Shown here one piece after another: positions 23,800-32,988 of a stretch of 64,000 nt of DNA. The notes beneath the pieces were generated by a model that did not search any database, was not told where the DNA came from, and worked only from the letters and a program-made list of their open reading frames with translations. The number at the start of each line of letters is the position of its first letter. Position 1 is the first letter of the stretch. The translations under genes were made by a program, and so were the position numbers. Source of the DNA: Escherichia coli (GTDB lineage Bacteria; Pseudomonadota; Gammaproteobacteria; Enterobacterales; Enterobacteriaceae). The DNA lies in the NCBI RefSeq assembly GCF_002854065.1, contig NZ_CP024147.1; one strand, written 5' to 3'.

Positions 23800-23986
23800 A
23801 AGTCGTTCCCTCAGGAAGAAGTGATGAGTAACATTTCTTCCAGCATTCGAACAATTCTATTTCATCGTTAGCCCTTGTCCTGTAAGGTAATTGTCTTAAC
23901 ACGCCCGTTATTCATCATGCCGAACGCAACCGAACGCGCCGGATACATGATCGGGTTTATCCAGTCGTTATGTCGAGGTATCCGGT

Positions 23987-25192
23987 TTGAGCAAGACACC
24001 ACTCACAGCAAAGGCCATCGCAGCCGCGCAGCCAAAAGACAAGCCCTATAAACTCACCGATTCACTGACGCCAGGACTGTTTTTGCTGGTGCATCCCAAC
24101 GGCAGCAAATACTGGCGATTCAGGTATTGGTTGAATAAACGAGAGTTTTTGCAGGCCATTGGTGTTTACCCGCTAATCACACTCAAAGAAGCACGCAGAC
24201 GCGCCACAGAGAGCCGATCTCTGATTGCTAATGGAATTAATCCAGTGGAAGAAGCACGCAAGGAAAAAGCCATTGATGCGCTCAACATGGCGGCAGGTTT
24301 TAAGACGGTAGCGGAGGACTGGCTGGCTACCAGGGTCAGCGGGTGGTCAGAGTCCTACACGAAACAGGTTAGATCGGCACTGGAAAAAGATGTTTACCCC
24401 GTGCTGGGGAAGCGGTCAATTGTCGATATAACGGCCCGTGACGTGCTGGAATTGCTTCAGAAGAAAGAGCGTACCGCACCGGAACAAGCCAGGAAGCTAC
24501 GCCAGCGTATCGGGGAGATCTTCAAATTTGCCGTTATCACCGAACTGGTGGCAAGAAATCCGGTTGCAGATCTGAACACAGCACTAAAAGCCCGCCGTCC
24601 GGGCCACAACGCATGGCTGCAAATTAACGAAATTCAGGCGTTCTATGAAGCACTTGAGAGAGCCGGGAGCGTCCAGATTCAGACGGCAATACGTTTGCTC
24701 ATATTGAGCGCTCTAAGGACGGTGGAACTGCGTAAAATGCGCTGGGAATGGGTTAACCTGGAAGACGCGATCATCACCCTACCCGCTGAAGTCATGAAGG
24801 CCCGTCGCCCGCATGTGGTCCCGCTATCACGGCAGGCGGTAGAGCTATTGCAGGACCAGTTTACTCGCACCGGATACAGCGCTTTCGTCTTCCCTGGTCG
24901 ATTCATGGATAAGCCCTTGTCTGCCAGCGCGATACTGAAAGCCCTGGAGCGTATCGGATACAAGTCGATAGCCACAGCACACGGCTGGCGTACAACGTTC
25001 AGCACGACGCTTAACGAGTCCGGCAGGTACTCACCAGACTGGATTGAAATCCAATTGGCCCACGTCCCGAAGGGTGTACGCGGTGTATATAACCAGGCGG
25101 CCTATCTCAAACAGCGCCGTCAAATGCTTCAGGACTACGCCGACGCCATTGATTCAATACTGGCTGGTGAAGGTAATCCGCTGGAACCGTGA
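23987..25192 (+). CDS. intZ: P4-type tyrosine integrase of a prophage remnant (TTG start)
   Basis: 401-aa ORF with N-terminal P4-integrase arm motif (KLTDSLTPGLFLLVHPNGSKYWRFRYW) and C-terminal tyrosine-recombinase core; K-12 has intZ next to eutB. Confidence 0.8.
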   Translation: MSKTPLTAKAIAAAQPKDKPYKLTDSLTPGLFLLVHPNGSKYWRFRYWLNKREFLQAIGVYPLITLKEARRRATESRSLIANGINPVEEARKEKAIDALNMAAGFKTVAEDWLATRVSGWSESYTKQVRSALEKDVYPVLGKRSIVDITARDVLELLQKKERTAPEQARKLRQRIGEIFKFAVITELVARNPVADLNTALKARRPGHNAWLQINEIQAFYEALERAGSVQIQTAIRLLILSALRTVELRKMRWEWVNLEDAIITLPAEVMKARRPHVVPLSRQAVELLQDQFTRTGYSAFVFPGRFMDKPLSASAILKALERIGYKSIATAHGWRTTFSTTLNESGRYSPDWIEIQLAHVPKGVRGVYNQAAYLKQRRQMLQDYADAIDSILAGEGNPLEP

Positions 25193-25224: not shown

Positions 25225-25418
25225 CGCTAATTATTCCACTATTCCAATTAAGTGGAATAAATTATTCAATATCAAAAACTTACATCAATATTGCAACAAT
25301 AAAAACGGTGGCTTATGATCAGATCATGATTTTCGGTATGTGAACAGCAAAAACAAGAAGCCCGGAAAGGCGGCAACCAATCCGGGCGATATGGGAAAAG
25401 AGATTAGGAGGTTTCCCC

Positions 25419-26186
25419 ATGCGTAATAGTTTAGCAGTTCGCTTTAGCTTGCAGCAAGGCGAAGAATTATCACAGGAATATCAATTCATCAAATACGAAG
25501 AAGCGCCGGAACAGGTGCAAATAGCTTTTGATGATCAGCACTACGGCAACACTATCCGCTACGACGGTAAAAAATGGTTTCTCAATCCGGTAACAAATGC
25601 CATTCACGTATGTCAAATCATTACGCCAGTAAATAACAGCGCGGATAACGATTCGGCTATTGACGCTGAACTGGTGACAGAACCACTACCGCCACCGCCG
25701 CCAGTACAAGAAAGCGATGTAAAACCCGACGCCATCGATCTGACAGCAGAAGCCAGAGAGCGCAAACAACCGAAGCCGGAACAACCGCAAGCCAAGGATA
25801 ACAAACAGTGGCACGGTAACACGGCGTATCTGAATACGTTTGCTTGTCATCTTCATGAAGTGCTACCACAGGCCATCTATAGCACATGGTGCGACAAACA
25901 AACGGCGGCACACTTCCACCTGCTTTACGCGCTTTGCTACCTGGCAAGCTACGAAAACAAAGATGAAGGTATCGAGCTTGGCGAGGTGTTATATGGTGCT
26001 GAAAAGATCACAAAGGGCGGCGTAGTACCTGGTTTCCATATGGCCCGATCAACGTTCGATATCAAGATTAACGAGCTTGAACAGTGGGGATTAATCAAGG
26101 TAACACGAGGTAAGAAACGTAAGGACGGGCAAGGCAACTTGCCGAACAGTATCAAACTGAACTTTAAGCCGTACAGTTTAAAATAA
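25419..26186 (+). CDS. Hypothetical prophage protein, possibly a winged-helix replication-initiator-like protein
   Basis: 255-aa ORF behind a strong SD (aggagg); proline/acidic linker then a basic C-terminal segment (ELEQWGLIKVTRGKKRKDG) resembling winged-helix initiators; weak inference. Confidence 0.55.
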   Translation: MRNSLAVRFSLQQGEELSQEYQFIKYEEAPEQVQIAFDDQHYGNTIRYDGKKWFLNPVTNAIHVCQIITPVNNSADNDSAIDAELVTEPLPPPPPVQESDVKPDAIDLTAEARERKQPKPEQPQAKDNKQWHGNTAYLNTFACHLHEVLPQAIYSTWCDKQTAAHFHLLYALCYLASYENKDEGIELGEVLYGAEKITKGGVVPGFHMARSTFDIKINELEQWGLIKVTRGKKRKDGQGNLPNSIKLNFKPYSLK

Positions 26187-26194
26187 TCACACTA

Positions 26195-26220
26195 GGCGGG
26201 CAATGTTCCCGCCTTTTCTT
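26195..26220 (+). terminator. Rho-independent terminator after the 255-aa ORF
   Basis: Stem ggcggg / cccgcc with 7-nt loop followed by ttttctt. Confidence 0.5.
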
Positions 26221-26243
26221 TGCCTCAATCCTATAAAATTCAC

Positions 26244-26282
26244 ATCCCGAAAATCGGTATCTGGGTATCCCGAAAATCGGTA
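26244..26282. repeat. Two perfect 16-bp direct repeats ATCCCGAAAATCGGTA with 23-bp period
   Basis: Copies at 26244-26259 and 26267-26282, immediately followed by an AT-rich tract. Confidence 0.7.
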
Positions 26283-27668
26283 AGTAATAATAAGTATTAT
26301 CCTTAAAGGTAAAAACCATATAAGTAAGATCTATCTCTTCAAGAATGTATATATTCACTACGTTCATATATACATGAGAAGTTTCCCTTTCATGCAGTCA
26401 AAACTACATTCATCAGCATCGCTTTCTGCGCTCTCCTTCCCAGCAAGCTGGAAAGGCCCATTCACTCACGCACAACCTGCAAACCAGACCAACATACCAT
26501 CATGGCGATTCGTTCATGGGTAGCGCGGGTATATCTCAAAGGGTGATTTCTTCTTGGTGGACCTTCGGAAGACTTCGAGCAATCGCCAGCTCAAAAGACG
26601 GTCTGGCAGTGATGGTTATCATCGACAGCATTGAGCGCTACCGCGCCAACTTACAGCAGCAGGATAACTACCGAAGGAAAACCCACGCCGAAAGGGATTG
26701 ACTCACTGCAAAGCCAATGGGTTTTATCAGCGTATACAGACCAGACAGGAAACAGCAGCAAAGCAGCGTATAGCCAGGTGCAGACAGTACCATCACACAA
26801 CGCACAGCAGGCTGAGGTGAACACTCAAACAGGTTTATCCCCGCAGCCGACCAACGCAAACCATCCTGACCGTGCCAAATTCGAACGGAATGGTGCCTGT
26901 AACGCGATGAACACATATAACCGCTTACTTGCTTACCTGAAAACTTCACGTCGCCACAGAGCGATTTAGACGCATTATAATTGATGCGATTTCATTAAAT
27001 TTTCACCAGACACCGGAACAACGCCGATTAATCCAGGAATGGATTCATCGACATGCGCCGCTTTCCCCGCAGAACAGTCTCGCCTGAATAGTCTCACCAA
27101 CCAGATTTCAGATTGTCCAATCAGGCACGTCTCATTAAACGACAGAATGCGGCCTACAACGCCATCGCTGCCGATCTCGTTTGAGCAAGGTGCTGAGACT
27201 GAATGACGGACGCCCACTCCTCAGAGCTGAGGAATCGCCACACAGAACGCTGAGATCTGATATTACCGCCGCACCATTCCACGCCAGACGAATCAATCTA
27301 ATCACACCTGAGCAAATGCATTGCCAAAAATTAAGGCCGTCAGAATGCGTTATATTGCGTTTAAACGGCATCTAATTTTAATTAGTTTTGATGTGGTGAT
27401 TGCAGGCAAAAAAAATCCCGCCGGAGAGAGCGGGGAAGTGAAATCAATCGTTGTAGTTATAGATCACATTTTGAGTAAGGGTTACCAGCCCTTGAGTAAT
27501 ATTATCCCTGTATTACGTGAGATGCGCAATTATTTTTTGCTAATTAAAAGTTTTGTAAACATTACAGAATATCCCCTTTCCCTATATGGTAAAAGATGTG
27601 AAACAGGGACATGAGGAATATAATATTAAGTATCAACAGTAATGTTGGTCTTTAATTTCATTCAGGGC

Positions 27669-27710
27669 GCGGTGAGGGTTTTCCCATATTTTTCCTCACC
27701 GCTACTTTTT
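27669..27710 (+). terminator. Terminator/attenuator-like hairpin in the leader of the AlpA-like gene
   Basis: Perfect 9-bp stem gcggtgagg (27669-27677) / cctcaccgc (27694-27702), 16-nt loop, T5 run at 27706-27710. Confidence 0.4.
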
Positions 27711-27721
27711 GAGGTGAGAAC

Positions 27722-27913
27722 ATGAATGATAGCGAATTAATGACGGTGAGCGAGGTAGCCGCTTTATTCGGCGTTACCCGACGCACTATATTCCGCTGGC
27801 TGAACAAGATTAAAGGTTGGCCCGTTCCGGTTACTCCGGTCGGTGCACGAATTAAGTTTATCCGATCTGAGATTTTGGAATTCTATAAAAACAAAGGCGC
27901 TCGCCACCAATGA
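27722..27913 (+). CDS. AlpA/excisionase-family helix-turn-helix prophage regulator
   Basis: 63-aa ORF MNDSELMTVSEVAALFGVTRRTIFRWLNK; HTH typical of prophage AlpA/Xis-type regulators; SD gaggtga 6 nt upstream. Confidence 0.7.
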   Translation: MNDSELMTVSEVAALFGVTRRTIFRWLNKIKGWPVPVTPVGARIKFIRSEILEFYKNKGARHQ

Positions 27914-27989: not shown

Positions 27990-28316
27990 ATGAAAATCAA
28001 AGCAAACACAATTAAAGAAATAACATCAATCAAAGTAAAAGGAGCAGATGCCATGCATTCATTAGACAGTTATTTTCAGCGCACGACAGCCCCTAAATCA
28101 GCCGCCCAGGAACGCCGTGAGGAATTCCAGGAAAAAGTGATGCGTTCTGCTGATTATATTGCGGACAAGTTCGTGGAAACGGTTCGGCCACTTGTTGATG
28201 AAGTAGCTGATAAACTTCAGTCTGAAATGCCGGAAGACATGGAAGGCACTGCAAAGGCGCGACTCCTTTTTGAATTAAGTCGTCGTTTCGGCGTGTCAAT
28301 AAGCACTTTTAAATAA
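27990..28316 (+). CDS. Hypothetical prophage protein (108 aa; may start at internal Met)
   Basis: ORF in co-directional tight cassette; no recognisable motif. Confidence 0.45.
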   Translation: MKIKANTIKEITSIKVKGADAMHSLDSYFQRTTAPKSAAQERREEFQEKVMRSADYIADKFVETVRPLVDEVADKLQSEMPEDMEGTAKARLLFELSRRFGVSISTFK

Positions 28317-28333
28317 TCGGAGGAGAAAAGACA

Positions 28334-28876
28334 ATGGACGCATTTGATGTACTGACAAACAAAGGCGATGAACTGGTAGCACAGCGTGATAAAACCGCCA
28401 ACGAAGGGGAACGCGCACTGTTAAATAAGCAGATTAAAGCGATCCGTATGGCCCAGTTTAAATTAATCAGCAATGAAGTTATCGAAATAATTAAACCGCA
28501 GATCCCACAAATCGTTGCTGACGCTATTAAAGCCGCCGGACTGGAGAAACGCATTGCCGGGCTGAAAACGAACGCAGAGAAAATGGAGATGCACAAACAG
28601 AGCGGTGCTCCGACTCCGGATGAGTACTTCTCACCGGATGCTGAGTTTATGGCGCAGGTTGAGGAACGTCTGGGTAGCTGTCTCACCGAGGAACAGCGTC
28701 GCTATTTTGATGGAGTGGATAGTTCGGCAGGTATTGACCTGAACTCGTGTTTCGGTCGTGAAATTGAGCATTTTGATGCCGCCCCGTCTATGCCGGAGCC
28801 AGAACCAGAAATGGCCGCCGATCCTGAAGCTGAGCAACGGAAACGCGTATTCAATGCGATAGGGATTCGGTACTGA
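28334..28876 (+). CDS. Hypothetical prophage protein (180 aa) with acidic C-terminal tail
   Basis: Strong SD (ggagga) 7 nt upstream; predicted helical N-terminal half and PEPEPE-containing acidic tail; no recognisable motif. Confidence 0.55.
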   Translation: MDAFDVLTNKGDELVAQRDKTANEGERALLNKQIKAIRMAQFKLISNEVIEIIKPQIPQIVADAIKAAGLEKRIAGLKTNAEKMEMHKQSGAPTPDEYFSPDAEFMAQVEERLGSCLTEEQRRYFDGVDSSAGIDLNSCFGREIEHFDAAPSMPEPEPEMAADPEAEQRKRVFNAIGIRY

Positions 28877-28927
28877 TCGGATAAAAGAAAGCCGGGAATT
28901 ACCCCGGCTGACTTAACAATGTGACCA

Positions 28928-29302
28928 ATGAACAAATCGGACAAGACAAACAGGATAAGCAGTCTCGAAACAATGTTCGGGAACTATATTAGCACAAGTC
29001 CGGAGAAAATCATCATGTTGGCACTACGCATCATGCAGGGCATCGCTAAGACCCTCGCAGAACATGTCTTAGACCTGAAACATTCGCCACTGAGCAAACA
29101 GGCCATGAAGCGCCAAACGCTTCGTCTGTGGGCTGAATATTCGCTTGGAACTATCAATAAAATCATCGACATGAAATCGGGGCCGAGCAACCAGAGCGCG
29201 GAGGAAATGGAGTTCATCAGGCGTTTAATTCTCATTCGCAGAGATATTCATAGCCAGTTACACAGCGTGGGAATCGATATTAATGATGGGACGGGCGATT
29301 AA
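28928..29302 (+). CDS. Hypothetical prophage protein (124 aa)
   Basis: ORF in same cassette; basic, helical; no recognisable motif. Confidence 0.5.
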   Translation: MNKSDKTNRISSLETMFGNYISTSPEKIIMLALRIMQGIAKTLAEHVLDLKHSPLSKQAMKRQTLRLWAEYSLGTINKIIDMKSGPSNQSAEEMEFIRRLILIRRDIHSQLHSVGIDINDGTGD

Positions 29303-29340
29303 TTTTCGGACAAGTACAATGCGCGCGCGAGGAGCTGAAC

Positions 29341-29571
29341 ATGAAGCAAGATATTGCAGACAGGCTGGAGATACTCGAAGGCCAGCGGGCAGAAGCGAAA
29401 CAACTACGTAAGCAGGCCAGAAGAGCGCACAGGAACTACGAAGCAGAATCACTGACCGCTTTCATCAACTTCACAAACCGTTGCATCCAGGAGTGTTACA
29501 GGGAGGATGCAGAAAACTGGCTGGATTCATTGCCAGAACAGACTCTGCATGAACTGAACGGCGACCAGTAA
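29341..29571 (+). CDS. Hypothetical prophage protein (76 aa, coiled-coil-like)
   Basis: SD gaggag 7 nt upstream of ATG; Arg/Glu/Gln-rich helical sequence. Confidence 0.45.
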   Translation: MKQDIADRLEILEGQRAEAKQLRKQARRAHRNYEAESLTAFINFTNRCIQECYREDAENWLDSLPEQTLHELNGDQ

Positions 29572-29859
29572 ATAAATCCAGTACGTTTCCCGCAGTGCGC
29601 ATAACGTACATTATGTGAAAAACGATATGGATGTATATCAGTATTGATTTCATTGAGAAAACTGGGTTTTCAGTGGCACAGACAAAGAAGCATAGCTGAT
29701 ACAGCTTTATAAGCCATTGATTCTATTAAGTGATGTTTTTTGTGATTGGTTGAAGCAAACCAAAACACGATGCCACTGAAGCGTTAATAAACTGTTTCAA
29801 TGTGAAATTATTAGAGTAAAGAACAATTTGGAGGGTCCGCAAACGCGGATAACAATATC

Positions 29860-32040
29860 ATGAGTGGAAATCTCGGGACCATATACTACGAGGTCGATGC
29901 CCGCACTGGGAAACTTCTTATCGCGCAACAGCAGGCGGAAGAGGCGTTCGATCGCATTGAACGAGGAGCGCGGAAGGCTGATAGCGGCGTCAAAAAGTTA
30001 AATACGCAGATGACTAAAACATCAGCCGCAGTCAAAACCAACCTTTCCCCGGCAATCCGTAACGCATCATACCAGATCGCAGACCTTGCCACTCAATTGC
30101 AGATGGGCGGTAATGCGCTTCAGGCGTTCGCTGTGCAGGGTGCGCAGTTATTAGCTGGCTTTGGCACGATGGGCGCGGTAGCTGGCGCGGTGCTGGCTAT
30201 CGCTGGCGCTATGGGTGGAAGCCTGGCACAAGGCGCTGATAGTGCAGCCGGATCGGTTGAGTATCTGGACAAGGCGATCACCAAACTGAACGAGGTCATA
30301 GCTGTAAATGAACAGGGCGTGACGGTGATGAGTGATAGTTACGCCAGACTTTCTAAGGTTAACGCTGAAGTAGCGAAACAGATGCGGAACATGGCTGAAA
30401 TTCAGGCAATTGCAGCACTGCGTGACCTGAAAGAACAGGCAAGCCAGGCACAGGGGGAAATGTCGTCATTCTGGCGCAGCTTGCAGGGTGGTAAAGCTGA
30501 CGCAGCAGCAGCAGCACAGGCACTTGATGATCTTGGAATCACAACCAACGACTACAAAGAGGCGATAGCCATACTGAACGCCAATCAGCCGGATACACAG
30601 GCGCAAATGGCAACGCTAGCCAAATCCGTGATGTATGTTGGAGAGCAATATGATCTGACCAACCAGCAAGCATACGAATTTATACGCGCACTAAATAAGG
30701 CCGCGACAACGAAAACGCCGGAAGCCATGCAGGAGCTATCTGGCTTCATGCAGGTTTTGCTTCAGGATACCGAAAACGGTAACGAGGCATTCCGTGAACT
30801 GGCTATCAAATTCGTCGATGCACAAACCAAAGGCGCAATGTTGGAGGACCAACTAAACCGACTGAAAGGCGCTATTAGTGACGCAGCCACAGAAGCCAGA
30901 AACGCAAACTTTACCACTATGCTCAACACCGTCGCCGCACGCCTGGCAACCATTGAGCAAGGTTGGGAGGCAGGCGTTAGGATGCAGATGAAAGCCCAGG
31001 GCTACACTGAAGAGCAGATCGATGAATATGTGAACATGGAAACGGCGTACCGTGATGCAAAAGCCGCTTTGGACGAGAAGAACAAGGCCGACCGTGAAGC
31101 TATTGCGCTATCCAAACGCCAGGCCGCAGAAGCAGCCCGCAAGGCAAAACAGGAAGAAGCTGAAGCACAACGCAAGGCCAAACAGTTAGCCGCGCAGAAG
31201 GAGCAGGCAGGACGCTTTACGCAGCAAGTAATGACGGAATACCTGACGACCGTAGATCCGGCAACAGGCAAGGCGTTTAACCCTGCCGCACAAGTAGAAA
31301 TGCAGGAGCAGCAGAAGAAAGCGGCGCTGGATAAATACAGACAGTTGGGCGTCCTGGATGAACAGCAGTACCAGAACACGCTAACCGCCATCCAGAAAAC
31401 CGCGTCAATGCGCCGCCAGCAAATCATCAAAGACGAGGCCGACACGTTATTCAACAATCAGCAACAGTTGATCGGCACATTTGGCGATTTCTTCGGTGAA
31501 CTGTCTGGAGTCATAGCAGACGGTGCAGGTGAGCAAAACGCGGCATATCAAGCGCTATTTGCTGTGCAGAAGGGTTTTGTATTGGCATCAGCAGCTTTAA
31601 GCCTTCAGAAAGCGCTTGCTGAGGCAAACGCCTTGCCTTTCCCGGCTAATCTTCCGGCCTATGCGCAAGCTATGTCAGCAGGTACGCAGATCATTTCAGC
31701 TATTCGTGGAATAGCTTTCGGTGGCGGACGCTACAACGGCGGCGCGGTTGGTGCTGGCAACCTGTACCGCGTGGGTGAACACGGTAAGCCTGAGATATTC
31801 AAGGCGAACAATGGCAGCCAGTACATGATCCCAGGTGATAACGGTCGCGTGATAAGTAATCGTGACATTGGCGGCGGTGGCGGCGTAACAATCAACAGCC
31901 CGATCACCATTAACACTACGAATGGCTTCAGTGATGAAGACTCAAGGCGTCTTGAGGAAGCGATGAAGCGCGTAGCTATGGGCGTTTGCAGGCAGGAGTC
32001 AACCAGACCGGGAGGAATGTTAGCCCCGCGCCGTCGTTAA
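29860..32040 (+). CDS. Phage tail tape-measure-like protein
   Basis: 726-aa Ala/Gln-rich mostly helical ORF with glycine-rich hydrophobic N-terminal segment, long coiled-coil region (AEAARKAKQEEAEAQRKAKQLAAQKEQ) and C-terminal Gly-rich motif GGGRYNGGAVGAGNLYRVGEHG resembling the lambda gpH C-terminus as recalled. Confidence 0.65.
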   Translation: MSGNLGTIYYEVDARTGKLLIAQQQAEEAFDRIERGARKADSGVKKLNTQMTKTSAAVKTNLSPAIRNASYQIADLATQLQMGGNALQAFAVQGAQLLAGFGTMGAVAGAVLAIAGAMGGSLAQGADSAAGSVEYLDKAITKLNEVIAVNEQGVTVMSDSYARLSKVNAEVAKQMRNMAEIQAIAALRDLKEQASQAQGEMSSFWRSLQGGKADAAAAAQALDDLGITTNDYKEAIAILNANQPDTQAQMATLAKSVMYVGEQYDLTNQQAYEFIRALNKAATTKTPEAMQELSGFMQVLLQDTENGNEAFRELAIKFVDAQTKGAMLEDQLNRLKGAISDAATEARNANFTTMLNTVAARLATIEQGWEAGVRMQMKAQGYTEEQIDEYVNMETAYRDAKAALDEKNKADREAIALSKRQAAEAARKAKQEEAEAQRKAKQLAAQKEQAGRFTQQVMTEYLTTVDPATGKAFNPAAQVEMQEQQKKAALDKYRQLGVLDEQQYQNTLTAIQKTASMRRQQIIKDEADTLFNNQQQLIGTFGDFFGELSGVIADGAGEQNAAYQALFAVQKGFVLASAALSLQKALAEANALPFPANLPAYAQAMSAGTQIISAIRGIAFGGGRYNGGAVGAGNLYRVGEHGKPEIFKANNGSQYMIPGDNGRVISNRDIGGGGGVTINSPITINTTNGFSDEDSRRLEEAMKRVAMGVCRQESTRPGGMLAPRRR

Positions 32041-32163
32041 CCAAATCCCACGCCAGGGGAACAGACTGGCGGACCTTCAAAGACGGTCGCACACCGTGTT
32101 TGACATAATTTATTGTTTTTTGCTTGCTCTTATTATTGCAGCCGTTAGGGTAATGACTCCAAC

Positions 32164-32667
32164 TTATTGATAGTGTTTTATGTTCAGATAATGCCCGATG
32201 ACTTTGTCATGCAGCTCCACCGATTTTGAGAACGACAGCGACTTCCGTCCCAGCCGTGCCAGGTGCTGCCTCAGATTCAGGTTATGCCGCTCAATTCGCT
32301 GCGTATATCGCTTGCTGATTACGTGCAGCTTTCCCTTCAGGCGGGATTCATACAGCGGCCAGCCATCCGTCATCCATATCACCACGTCAAAGGGTGACAG
32401 CAGGCTCATAAGACGCCCCAGCGTCGCCATAGTGCGTTCACCGAATACGTGCGCAACAACCGTCTTCCGGAGACTGTCATACGCGTAAAACAGCCAGCGC
32501 TGGCGCGATTTAGCCCCGACGTATCCCCACTGTTCGTCCATTTCCGCGCAGACGATGACGTCACTGCCCGGCTGTATGCGCGAGGTTACCGACTGCGGCC
32601 TGAGTTTTTTAAATGGCGGAAAATCGTGTTGAGGCCAACGCCCATAATGCGGGCGGTTGCCCGGCAT
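32164..32667 (-). CDS. insB: IS1 InsB reading frame (expressed as InsAB transposase by -1 frameshift)
   Basis: 167-aa ORF overlapping the insA 3-prime end in the -1 frame, classic IS1 organisation. Confidence 0.85.
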
Positions 32668-32861
32668 CCAACGCCATTCATGGCCATATCAATGATTTTC
32701 TGGTGCGTACCGGGTTGAGAAGCGGTGTAAGTGAACTGCAGTTGCCATGTTTTACGGCAGTGAGAGCAGAGATAGCGCTGATGTCCGGCAGTGCTTTTGC
32801 CGTTACGCACCACCCCGTCAGTAGCTGAACAGGAGGGACAGCTGATAGAAACAGAAGCCAC
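32586..32861 (-). CDS. insA: IS1 InsA protein
   Basis: 91-aa [46 protein letters not shown] with zinc-finger cysteines. Confidence 0.9.
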
Positions 32862-32988
32862 TGGAGCACCTCAAAAACACCATCATACACTAAATCAGTA
32901 AGTTGGCAGCATCACCAGCTTTACTAATATATTGCAGCTGGACCGCTTACCCTGAATATTCAGGGTAAGCGTGAGAGTTAAAAAAGAA

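What the first reader, a model, noticed from the sequence alone, without database searches (positions are those of the whole stretch)
27990..29571. Four-gene cassette of uncharacterised small proteins between the AlpA-like regulator and the tape-measure gene
Four co-directional ORFs (108, 180, 124 and 76 aa) sit with short spacers, and the 180-aa and 76-aa ORFs have strong Shine-Dalgarno sequences. I could find no catalytic or nucleic-acid-binding motif by eye. The 180-aa protein ends in an acidic PEPEPE-containing tail and the 76-aa protein is Arg/Glu-rich and helical. Their position behind an AlpA-type regulator in a prophage remnant is where cargo such as superinfection-exclusion, anti-defence or toxin-antitoxin functions often lies. 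This is the best candidate for an undescribed function in the window, but the assignment is only positional.
Basis: inference. Interest (0 to 1): 0.6.

Follow-up and report, generated by a model that had tools for sequence, protein, structure and literature searches.

The report
Core genes of a CPZ-55-type island
The four small genes are real and of unknown function, but at least three are not cargo: they are the conserved backbone of a narrow E. coli family of small mobile elements (CPZ-55 type) that looks like a phage satellite.

Summary
The ORFs exist at the stated coordinates and all four are under purifying selection. Two are probably shorter than stated: 87 aa starting at 28053, and 95 aa starting at 29015. 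None matches any family in Pfam, PHROGs, NCBIfam, PADLOC, PDB sequences or 50,697 phage genomes.

The window element is a CPZ-55-type (IntZ) island between eutB and eutA. An IS1-linked deletion has immobilised this copy.

Three of the four genes (p108/87, p180, and p95, the YffM family) occur in the same order, after alpA (and HNH) and before TerS or the tape-measure gene, in every related element recovered. These are islands with three unrelated tyrosine integrases at different sites, plus two closed 9-kb circular E. coli plasmids with a serine recombinase. Variable cargo, such as a YafO toxin module, sits elsewhere, between int and alpA.

The genes are therefore backbone, not cargo. p76 fills a variable slot.

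The proteins are soluble and all-helical, with no catalytic features. My best reading is that they are AlpA-switched adaptor proteins in a satellite-like programme that exploits a helper phage for packaging or assembly. That mechanism is inferred, not shown.

The parts
23811..23818 (.). Left copy of the 8-bp target duplication TCAGGAAG at the eutB side of the island. The right copy is missing in this window.
   Evidence: the repeat flanks the island on both sides in L002, L003 (K-12), L004 and L013, but is found only once here. PMC6379469 describes this duplication for CPZ-55.
23987..25192 (+). intZ-type tyrosine integrase
   Evidence: phrog_1, E 1e-65. RefSeq names it intZ. About 85% nucleotide identity to K-12 intZ.
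25419..26186 (+). p255, a YffL-like protein in the variable int-alpA slot
   Evidence: 28% identity to K-12 YffL over 134 aa, E 9e-11. No family hits. Strain PE164 has a YafO toxin module in its place.
26557..27014 (.). Conserved non-coding block, a candidate ori or packaging site
   Evidence: 85-87% identical in islands with unrelated integrases (L012, L013, L002, K-12).
27669..27709 (+). Terminator-like hairpin plus U tract immediately upstream of the alpA ribosome-binding site
   Evidence: the 86-nt region 27640-27725 containing the hairpin folds at -26.6 kcal/mol, z = -3.1.
27722..27913 (+). AlpA/excisionase-type HTH regulator
   Evidence: phrog_66, E 1.5e-8. TIGR01764 excise domain. Siblings carry PF05930 Phage_AlpA.
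27990..28316 (+). p108. Probable true start is 28053, giving 87 aa. Member of the family-wide 96-107-aa helical protein that follows alpA/HNH.
   Evidence: hhalign probability 91.7%, E 7.6e-7, to the 5-member positional family. 95% identical copy in the ychK/ychJ island. dN/dS.
28334..28876 (+). p180. Three long N-terminal helices, then an acidic low-confidence region with repeated (D/E/R)xYF-type motifs, then a conserved C-terminal helix (RKRVFNAIGI). It is a fusion of two genes that are separate in other members.
   Evidence: AF2 model. Alignment A1. Split as 86+140 or 82+145 aa in L013 and L006. Only about 3 full-length 50%-identity clusters among 1.8 billion representatives.
28890..28909 (+). 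GC-rich hairpin after p180, followed by a CAACAATG(C/T)G motif. It separates the cassette into two gene pairs and coincides with a recombination breakpoint.
   Evidence: A hairpin is present at the same place, with different stem sequences, in 6 element types. dS is 0.06-0.09 upstream versus 0.8-0.9 downstream when compared with L012.
29015..29302 (+). p95 (YffM family). The ORF as listed runs from 28928 (124 aa). Confident three-helix bundle.
29341..29571 (+). p76, an Escherichia/Shigella-only orphan protein occupying a variable slot after p95
   Evidence: Homologues occur only in E. coli and Shigella, at 65% identity or more. Other members carry the unrelated YffN or other proteins in this slot (hhalign probability 0.2%).
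29594..29859 (+). Non-coding leader that travels with the tape-measure gene
   Evidence: 90% identical to the region upstream of the L013 tape-measure gene, although the upstream neighbour gene differs.
29860..32040 (+). Full-length tape-measure-like gene (726 aa)
   Evidence: phrog_1538 E 7e-103 and phrog_1107 E 7e-58. The homologue in phage mEp013 (about 76% nt identity over the 3' 264 nt; N-terminal 75 aa 44% identical) is 735 aa and lies in the tail module. dN/dS 0.11.
32149..32916 (-). IS1 at the junction of a deletion that removed the island's right end, the right-hand repeat, and eutA through eutS

Best explanation
**What it is.** The four ORFs are genuine genes of the AlpA-headed operon of a CPZ-55-type mobile element.

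- Three of them (p108/87, p180, and p95 = YffM family) are the signature backbone genes of this narrow Escherichia/Shigella/Citrobacter element family.
- They always lie between alpA (and HNH) and the small-terminase or tape-measure genes.
- p76 is a lineage-specific occupant of the next, variable slot.

**How it probably works.** They encode small, soluble, all-helical, non-enzymatic proteins. The most likely role (inferred, not shown) is as protein-binding adaptors in a satellite-type programme that exploits a helper phage.

1. AlpA is the helper-induced master activator in characterised Gram-negative PICIs.
2. After AlpA switches the operon on, these proteins would act together with the element's HNH/TerS packaging genes.
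3. They would redirect or interfere with helper packaging or virion assembly.

p180 has a long coiled-coil-like N-terminus, an acidic flexible linker and a conserved basic C-terminal helix. This build is scaffold- or adaptor-like.

They are not accessory cargo.
For: **Shown here**

1. The genes are coding and constrained (dN/dS 0-0.42).
2. The same gene order, alpA-(HNH)-p108fam-p180fam-p95fam-X-(TerS)-(TMP), appears in every related element recovered:
   - IntZ islands at eutB/eutA (window; L002; L004; L013/L014).
   - An island with a 29%-identical integrase next to ychJ (L010-L012).
   - A Citrobacter island with a third integrase (L016).
   - Contigs L005 and L006.
   - Two closed circular 8.9- and 9.7-kb plasmids with a serine recombinase.
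3. Clustering puts the p180 and p95 families in all element types compared. hhalign joins p108 to the positional family.
4. The variable genes lie elsewhere: YafO toxin module versus p255 between int and alpA, and 3'-end genes.
5. The flanking conserved genes are packaging genes: HNH and Sf6-type TerS.
6. No phage, defence or toxin-antitoxin homology.
7. No transmembrane segment.
8. Structures: p95 is a confident three-helix bundle. p180 is an N-terminal helical rod plus an acidic, low-confidence tail and a C-terminal helix.

**From the literature**
- AlpA is the helper-induced master regulator needed for PICI lytic-gene expression (PMC6092414; PMC11773190).
- In PICIs, the interference and packaging genes lie upstream of terS (PMC6092414).
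Against: - No helper phage, excision, induction or packaging has been shown for any member.
- The window copy lacks HNH and TerS, and cannot excise because attR is lost.
- The family was not found in IMG/VR viral contigs.
- Fold searches give only generic helical matches, so the adaptor/scaffold idea rests on architecture and position alone.
- The slot directly after alpA holds replication genes in canonical Gram-negative PICIs, so a replication role is a serious rival.
- The comparison set is about ten elements recovered through homologues of these same proteins. 'Always present' is therefore partly circular for p180 and p95. However, each family was recovered when searching with the other, and alongside independent markers (alpA, HNH, TerS).
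Confidence: 0.5

Rival explanations
1. Replication or maintenance helpers. The trio recruits or loads host replisome components at the element's origin, filling the place that pri-rep occupies directly after alpA in canonical Gram-negative PICIs.
For: - Canonical PICIs place the replication module next to the regulator (PMC6092414).
- The window island has no recognisable primase or helicase.
- A conserved non-coding block that could be an origin lies just upstream.
- p180 carries repeated acidic xYF motifs in a flexible region, a style used by short peptide motifs that bind replisome proteins (my inference).
Against: - No similarity to any replication protein family.
- The trio is kept unchanged in members that have their own D5-like primase (L006, L017), and in members with an initiator-like HTH_36 protein encoded elsewhere.
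- It is bracketed by packaging genes (HNH, TerS), not by an origin.
Confidence: 0.2
2. One reading: accessory cargo, meaning superinfection exclusion, anti-defence, toxin-antitoxin or another anti-phage function.
For: - The proteins are small orphans in a mobile element.
- p180 and p76 are acidic (pI 4.8 and 5.1), as many anti-defence proteins are.
- PICIs do carry immune genes at internal hot spots (PMC11364771).
- p76 itself sits in a variable slot, so a cargo-like role for p76 alone is not excluded.
Against: - Three of the four are the most conserved syntenic genes of the family rather than variable.
- Recognised cargo (the YafO module) sits between int and alpA.
- No PADLOC, NCBIfam or Pfam defence or toxin-antitoxin hit. 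The weak GnsAB match has E 0.73 and lies in the probably untranslated N-extension.
- No membrane segments, which argues against typical exclusion proteins.
Confidence: 0.12
3. Tail-assembly chaperones or other virion parts that serve the neighbouring tape-measure protein.
For: - They lie upstream of a full-length tape-measure gene.
- In L012 a Neck1/tail-completion homologue sits between p72 and the tape-measure gene.
- p76 is in the -1 frame relative to p95.
Against: - The trio is present in members with no tape-measure gene (L016, L017, L018).
- It is separated from the tape-measure gene by PPIase/TerS/YffP in others.
- The 266-bp leader travels with the tape-measure gene, not with the cassette.
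- No slippery heptamer; the frames overlap by only 16 nt.
- No PHROG tail or chaperone hit.
- No homologues in 50,697 phage genomes.
Confidence: 0.06

Closest known systems
Cryptic prophage CPZ-55 of E. coli K-12 (intZ, yffL-yffS)
   Same: - Same integration site, just after the eutA stop codon, with the TCAGGAAG duplication.
- intZ is about 85% identical at the nucleotide level.
- p255 is related to YffL.
- p95 belongs to the YffM family.
- Sibling islands carry YffN, YffO (TerS) and YffP.
   Different: - K-12 CPZ-55 is a deleted version. It lacks alpA, the p108 and p180 families and the tape-measure gene, and its YffM is N-terminally truncated (81 aa).
- The window island lacks YffN, YffO and YffP.
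Gram-negative phage-inducible chromosomal islands (PICIs, e.g. EcCICFT073, EcCIMP1)
   Same: - A small island with an integrase at one end and a co-oriented alpA heading a long operon.
- Family members carry terS and HNH.
- Cargo sits near the ends.
- Many genes are exclusive to the element family (PMC6092414).
   Different: - No pri-rep module in the window island.
- A phage structural gene (tape measure) is present, which the PICI definitions and SatelliteFinder forbid.
- The family has plasmid-state members, which PICIs are said not to have.
- None of the four proteins matches a known PICI protein family held in PHROGs, Pfam or PDB.
SaPI operon I (cpmA/cpmB, ptiA/M/B, ppi upstream of terS)
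   Same: - Works-like analogy only.
- A run of small, mostly helical, element-specific proteins lies just upstream of the satellite terS. They bind helper proteins to remodel capsids or block helper packaging (my knowledge of the SaPI literature; gene-order statement in PMC6092414).
   Different: - No sequence or fold relationship was detected.
- Different bacterial phylum.
- No experimental link.
P4-like satellites
   Same: - An AlpA/Vis-type regulator.
- Some family members have a D5/alpha-like primase and a plasmid state.
   Different: - No PHROG hit to any P4-family protein (psu, delta, sid, epsilon) for the window-island proteins or the sampled sibling proteins.
- Different packaging genes (HNH plus Sf6-type TerS).

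Membership tests
CPZ-55-type (IntZ) island | IntZ-type integrase and insertion after the eutA stop codon with the 8-bp TCAGGAAG duplication | tested here: met
   The integrase is about 85% identical at the nucleotide level to K-12 intZ. The left repeat is at 23811; the right repeat was lost through IS1 and a deletion. Intact siblings have both repeats.
CPZ-55-type (IntZ) island | Shared gene content with K-12 CPZ-55 (yffL, yffM ...) | tested here: met
   p255 matches YffL at E 9e-11. p95 aligns with YffM.
Gram-negative PICI | Integrase plus a co-oriented AlpA master regulator | tested here: met
   by homology and gene order only. Regulation itself was not tested.
Gram-negative PICI | Replication module (pri-rep plus ori) | tested here: not met
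   No primase or helicase in the window island. Siblings have an HTH_36 initiator-like protein or a D5-like primase.
Gram-negative PICI | Absence of phage structural and lysis genes | tested here: not met
   A full-length tape-measure homologue is present. Siblings also have a Neck1/tail-completion protein and a tail assembly protein. Tail genes are forbidden components in SatelliteFinder.
Gram-negative PICI | No plasmid state | tested here: not met
   Closed circular 8.9- and 9.7-kb plasmid records carry the same core module.
Gram-negative PICI | Helper-dependent induction, specific packaging and high-frequency transfer | not testable with these tools
   This needs induction and transduction experiments. 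The family was not found in IMG/VR viral contigs.
Tail assembly chaperones (gpG/gpGT type) | Immediately upstream of the tape-measure gene, with a -1 slippery frameshift and membership of a chaperone family | tested here: not met
   A 289-bp gap separates them from the tape-measure gene. No slippery heptamer. No PHROG or Pfam hit. The trio occurs without a tape-measure gene in L016-L018.
Toxin-antitoxin or known defence systems | Match to a toxin, antitoxin or defence protein family | tested here: not met
   PADLOC, NCBIfam and Pfam give nothing significant.
Superinfection-exclusion proteins | Membrane or lipoprotein character (typical, not universal) | tested here: not met
   The maximum Kyte-Doolittle 19-residue window is 0.99 or lower for all four proteins.
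P4-like satellite | psu-delta-sid capsid-size operon and alpha primase | tested here: not met
   No PHROG hits to these for the window proteins.

The most novel reading that the evidence does not exclude
The CPZ-55-type elements are an unrecognised family of phage satellites. They exist both as islands, with swappable integrases, and as 9-kb plasmids. Current satellite finders miss them because several members bring their own tape-measure or tail-assembly genes. The conserved orphan trio (p108, p180, p95) would then be a new helper-hijacking device, for example a scaffold or adaptor set that couples the element's HNH/TerS to helper capsids or tails.
Probability: 0.3. Interest if true: 0.75.

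Novelty: new variant of a known kind. Interest (0 to 1): 0.5.

Why it matters
If the reading is right, a long-known 'cryptic prophage' of E. coli K-12 (CPZ-55) is a decayed member of a living family of satellite-like elements. Its core machinery consists entirely of proteins with no known relatives.

Some members of the family carry a tape-measure gene. That gene class is used as an exclusion criterion when searching for satellites, so the family would have been filtered out.

This would give a tractable E. coli system for finding a new way of exploiting helper phages. It would also assign a first biological context to the YffM family.

If it is wrong, these remain narrow-range orphan genes of limited general interest.

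Tried and rejected
**Family and profile searches, all negative**
- PHROGs, NCBIfam, PADLOC and Pfam scans of all four proteins and of distant family members gave nothing significant.
- The sub-threshold hits were judged to be noise: GnsAB (E 0.73), KleA/KleC (E 0.017), DUF1178, CFAP141.

**Solved-structure sequence searches**
- PDB profile searches gave only designed helical-repeat or TPR-like matches to the p108 family. I read these as helix-hairpin composition, not homology.

**Phage and viral collections**
- tblastn of all four proteins against 50,697 phage genomes gave no match.
- IMG/VR gave none.

**Range**
- An exhaustive HMMER scan of 1.8 billion representatives with p180 found only the same tiny family.
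- A scan of 100,044 species genomes with the p95 profile found one extra locus, in Citrobacter.

**Structure**

**Specific ideas tested and dropped**
- Tai tail-assembly-inhibition proteins were considered after reading PMC11364771. No Tai sequence was available for a direct comparison. Tai genes are mostly phage-borne, including in phi80, yet the four proteins have no PHROG or phage-genome match, so the idea was not pursued.
- gpG/gpGT frameshift: no slippery site.
- p76 versus YffN-type slot-mates: unrelated.
- Rfam on the island: nothing.
- Exact long att repeats: not found; only the published 8-bp duplication.
- RNAalifold on the inter-pair hairpin was uninformative because MAFFT misaligned the stems. 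Single-sequence folds were used instead.
Full report
**Where the finding sits**

The window is E. coli chromosome. The region from about 23.8 to 32.1 kb is a small island inserted between eutB and eutA. This is the site of the K-12 cryptic prophage CPZ-55, and RefSeq names the integrase intZ.

Intact copies are flanked by the published 8-bp duplication TCAGGAAG (PMC6379469). In this window only the left copy survives, at 23811. An IS1 (32149-32916) sits at a deletion that removed the island's right end, the right repeat, and eutA through eutS, joining the island to maeB. This copy is therefore immobilised.

The island layout is:

| Feature | Coordinates |
|---|---|
| intZ | 23987-25192 |
| p255 (YffL-like) | 25419-26186 |
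| Non-coding stretch, about 1.1 kb | 26187-27344 |
| alpA-type HTH | 27722-27913 |
| The four ORFs of the finding | 27990-29571 |
| Gap | 289 bp |
| Tape-measure-like gene, 726 aa | 29860-32040 |

**Checking the observation**

- The two strong Shine-Dalgarno sites are present.
- The PEPEPE-containing acidic tail of p180 and the Arg/Glu-rich composition of p76 are correct.
- The ORFs are real genes. Against diverged copies in other elements, dN/dS is 0.42 and 0.16 for p180, 0.17 for p95 and 0.30 for p76. The p87 core shows 0 non-synonymous and 4 synonymous changes.

Two ORFs are probably over-extended.

- The first most likely starts at 28053 (87 aa).
  - It has an AGGAG at the right distance.
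  - The 21-codon extension shows only non-synonymous changes plus an indel.
  - Distant relatives lack the extension.
- The third most likely starts at 29015 (95 aa).
  - It has a GGAG site.
  - RefSeq uses this start.
  - Full-length homologues from other elements are 92-100 aa.

With those starts the cassette is really two gene pairs, p87-p180 and p95-p76. They are separated by 138 bp that contain a GC-rich hairpin (28890-28909).

**No recognisable families**

- Pfam, PHROGs, NCBIfam and PADLOC give nothing significant for any of the four, or for their distant family members.
- tblastn against 50,697 phage genomes finds nothing for any of them.
- Profile searches against all PDB sequences find nothing credible.
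- An exhaustive HMMER scan of 1.8 billion representative proteins with p180 finds only about three full-length clusters.
- The p95, p76 and p180 families are confined to Escherichia and Shigella (plus one Salmonella-labelled p180 fragment). One extra Citrobacter locus turned up among 100,044 species genomes.
- None of the proteins has a hydrophobic segment.

**Structure**

- p95 is a confident three-helix bundle (pLDDT 88, pTM 0.77). It resembles only generic spectrin/syntaxin-Habc/BAG-type bundles.
- p180 has three long, confidently predicted helices in residues 1-90. These are followed by a low-confidence acidic region with DEYF / RYF / SCF / EHF motifs, and a C-terminal helix carrying a conserved RKRVFNAIGI motif. 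It has no fold match.
- I saw no catalytic or DNA-binding signature.

**The decisive evidence is comparative**

Following the homologues to their contigs shows one conserved gene order: alpA - (HNH) - p108 family - p180 family - p95 family - variable slot - (Sf6-type TerS - YffP-like) - (tape measure).

| Element | Backbone |
|---|---|
| Window, L002, L004, L013/L014 | IntZ islands at eutB/eutA |
| L010-L012 | Island next to ychJ; integrase only 29% identical to IntZ |
| L016 | Citrobacter island with a third integrase; no tape-measure gene |
| L005, L006 | Contigs carrying the same module |
| CP058022.1, CP057337.1 | Closed circular 8.9- and 9.7-kb E. coli plasmids with a serine recombinase; one also has a D5-like primase |

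Further points from the comparison:

- In the ychJ island, p108 is 95% identical to the window copy, p180 92%, p95 72%, p76 69%, and the tape measure only 40%.
- Clustering places the p180 and p95 families in every element type compared.
- hhalign joins p87 to the positional 96-107-aa family (probability 91.7%, E 7.6e-7).
- p180 is a fusion. In several members its two halves are separate adjacent genes (86+140 or 82+145 aa).
- p76 is found only in the window-type and ychJ-type elements. It is unrelated to the proteins that fill the same slot elsewhere, such as YffN.
- The interval between int and alpA is genuinely variable: p255 here, and a YafO-type toxin module in strain PE164.

Their stated refutation, confident homology to ordinary structural proteins, did not occur.

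The positional argument for cargo fails, for three reasons:

- Three of the four genes are the family's backbone.
- They are retained while the integrase, integration site, replication or maintenance genes and tail genes are all swapped.
- They are bracketed by packaging genes (HNH, TerS).

**How it most likely works**

[quoted passage not shown] The interference and packaging genes lie upstream of terS.

By position and conservation, I think these proteins are AlpA-switched, protein-binding adaptors of a satellite-type programme that exploits a helper phage for packaging or assembly. p180's build, a rod plus an acidic linker plus a basic C-terminal helix, is scaffold- or adaptor-like.

- Shown: gene reality, constraint, conserved order, narrow range, lack of known domains, helical folds.
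- Inferred: AlpA control, any helper phage, and the molecular targets.
- Confidence: I put the backbone-not-cargo conclusion at about 0.75, and the specific helper-exploitation role at about 0.5.

**Rivals**

- **Replication helper (about 0.2).** The slot after alpA holds pri-rep in canonical PICIs, and this island has no primase. Against it, the trio persists unchanged in members that have their own primase or an initiator-like protein elsewhere.
- **Cargo (about 0.12).** This is plausible mainly for p76.
- **Tail chaperones (about 0.06).**
  - The trio occurs without any tape-measure gene.
  - The 266-bp leader travels with the tape-measure gene rather than with the cassette.
  - There is no slippery site.

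**Comparison with known systems**

- The element is a member of the CPZ-55/IntZ island group.
- It resembles Gram-negative PICIs in int-alpA architecture and in the TerS/HNH of siblings.
- It fails three defining PICI features that I tested:
  - It has no pri-rep module.
  - It carries a phage structural gene, which is forbidden in SatelliteFinder models.
  - The family has plasmid-state members, whereas PICIs are said to have none.
- It is not P4-like: there is no psu, delta or sid.
- I found no paper linking CPZ-55 to satellites or describing a function for YffM.

**Verdict**

This is a real, conserved module of orphan genes whose context was misread. It is the core of a little-studied, satellite-like element family rather than cargo.

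It is moderately interesting. Function remains unproven and the range is narrow. However, the family offers a tractable E. coli system and an unusual feature, satellite-like elements that carry a tape-measure gene.

Noticed in passing
window 29594-32040; L012 10561-11004; L013 14307-14840: The island carries a full-length tape-measure homologue under purifying selection (dN/dS 0.11), with its own conserved 266-bp leader. Sibling islands add a Neck1/tail-completion protein or a tail assembly protein. Tail genes in a 9-13-kb AlpA island are unusual and would make satellite finders reject these elements. Phage homologues are only 30-40% identical.
   Followed up: partly
L017 (CP058022.1, 8873 bp) and L018 (CP057337.1, 9653 bp): Two closed circular E. 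coli 'plasmids' from sheep faeces carry the same alpA-HNH-trio-TerS-YffP-like module, with a serine recombinase. One also has a D5-like primase. They look like episomal members of the same family.
   Followed up: partly
window 26557-27014 and 27238-27389; repeats at 26244-26282 and 25312-25344: A non-coding block is 85-87% identical between islands with unrelated integrases. In L012 it lies at the opposite end, next to the initiator-like gene. It is a candidate origin or packaging site. A 16-nt repeat, ATCCCGAAAATCGGTA, occurs twice downstream of p255, with inverted copies upstream of it.
   Followed up: no
window 27669-27709: A 10-bp GC-rich hairpin followed by a U tract lies directly upstream of the alpA ribosome-binding site (the 86-nt region 27640-27725 folds with z = -3.1). 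It is a possible attenuator controlling read-through into the alpA operon.
   Followed up: no
window 28890-28924: The hairpin after p180 is kept at the same position with different stem sequences in six element types. It is followed by a conserved CAACAATG(C/T)G motif. Sequence divergence against L012 jumps from dS of about 0.07 to about 0.9 across it, marking a recombination breakpoint.
   Followed up: partly
window 32149-32916 and flanks: An IS1 sits at a deletion that removed the island's right end, the right target repeat, and the eutA-eutS half of the ethanolamine operon. The tape-measure gene now lies next to maeB, so the strain should be Eut-negative and the island unable to excise.
   Followed up: yes
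L002 11508-12357 versus window 25419-26186: The int-alpA interval is the real variable slot. Strain PE164 has a YafO-family toxin plus a partner gene where the window has the YffL-like p255.
   Followed up: partly
window 27345-27614: RefSeq annotates an 89-aa hypothetical protein here. Related islands break its reading frame (two tblastn segments in different frames), so it is probably not a gene.
   Followed up: partly
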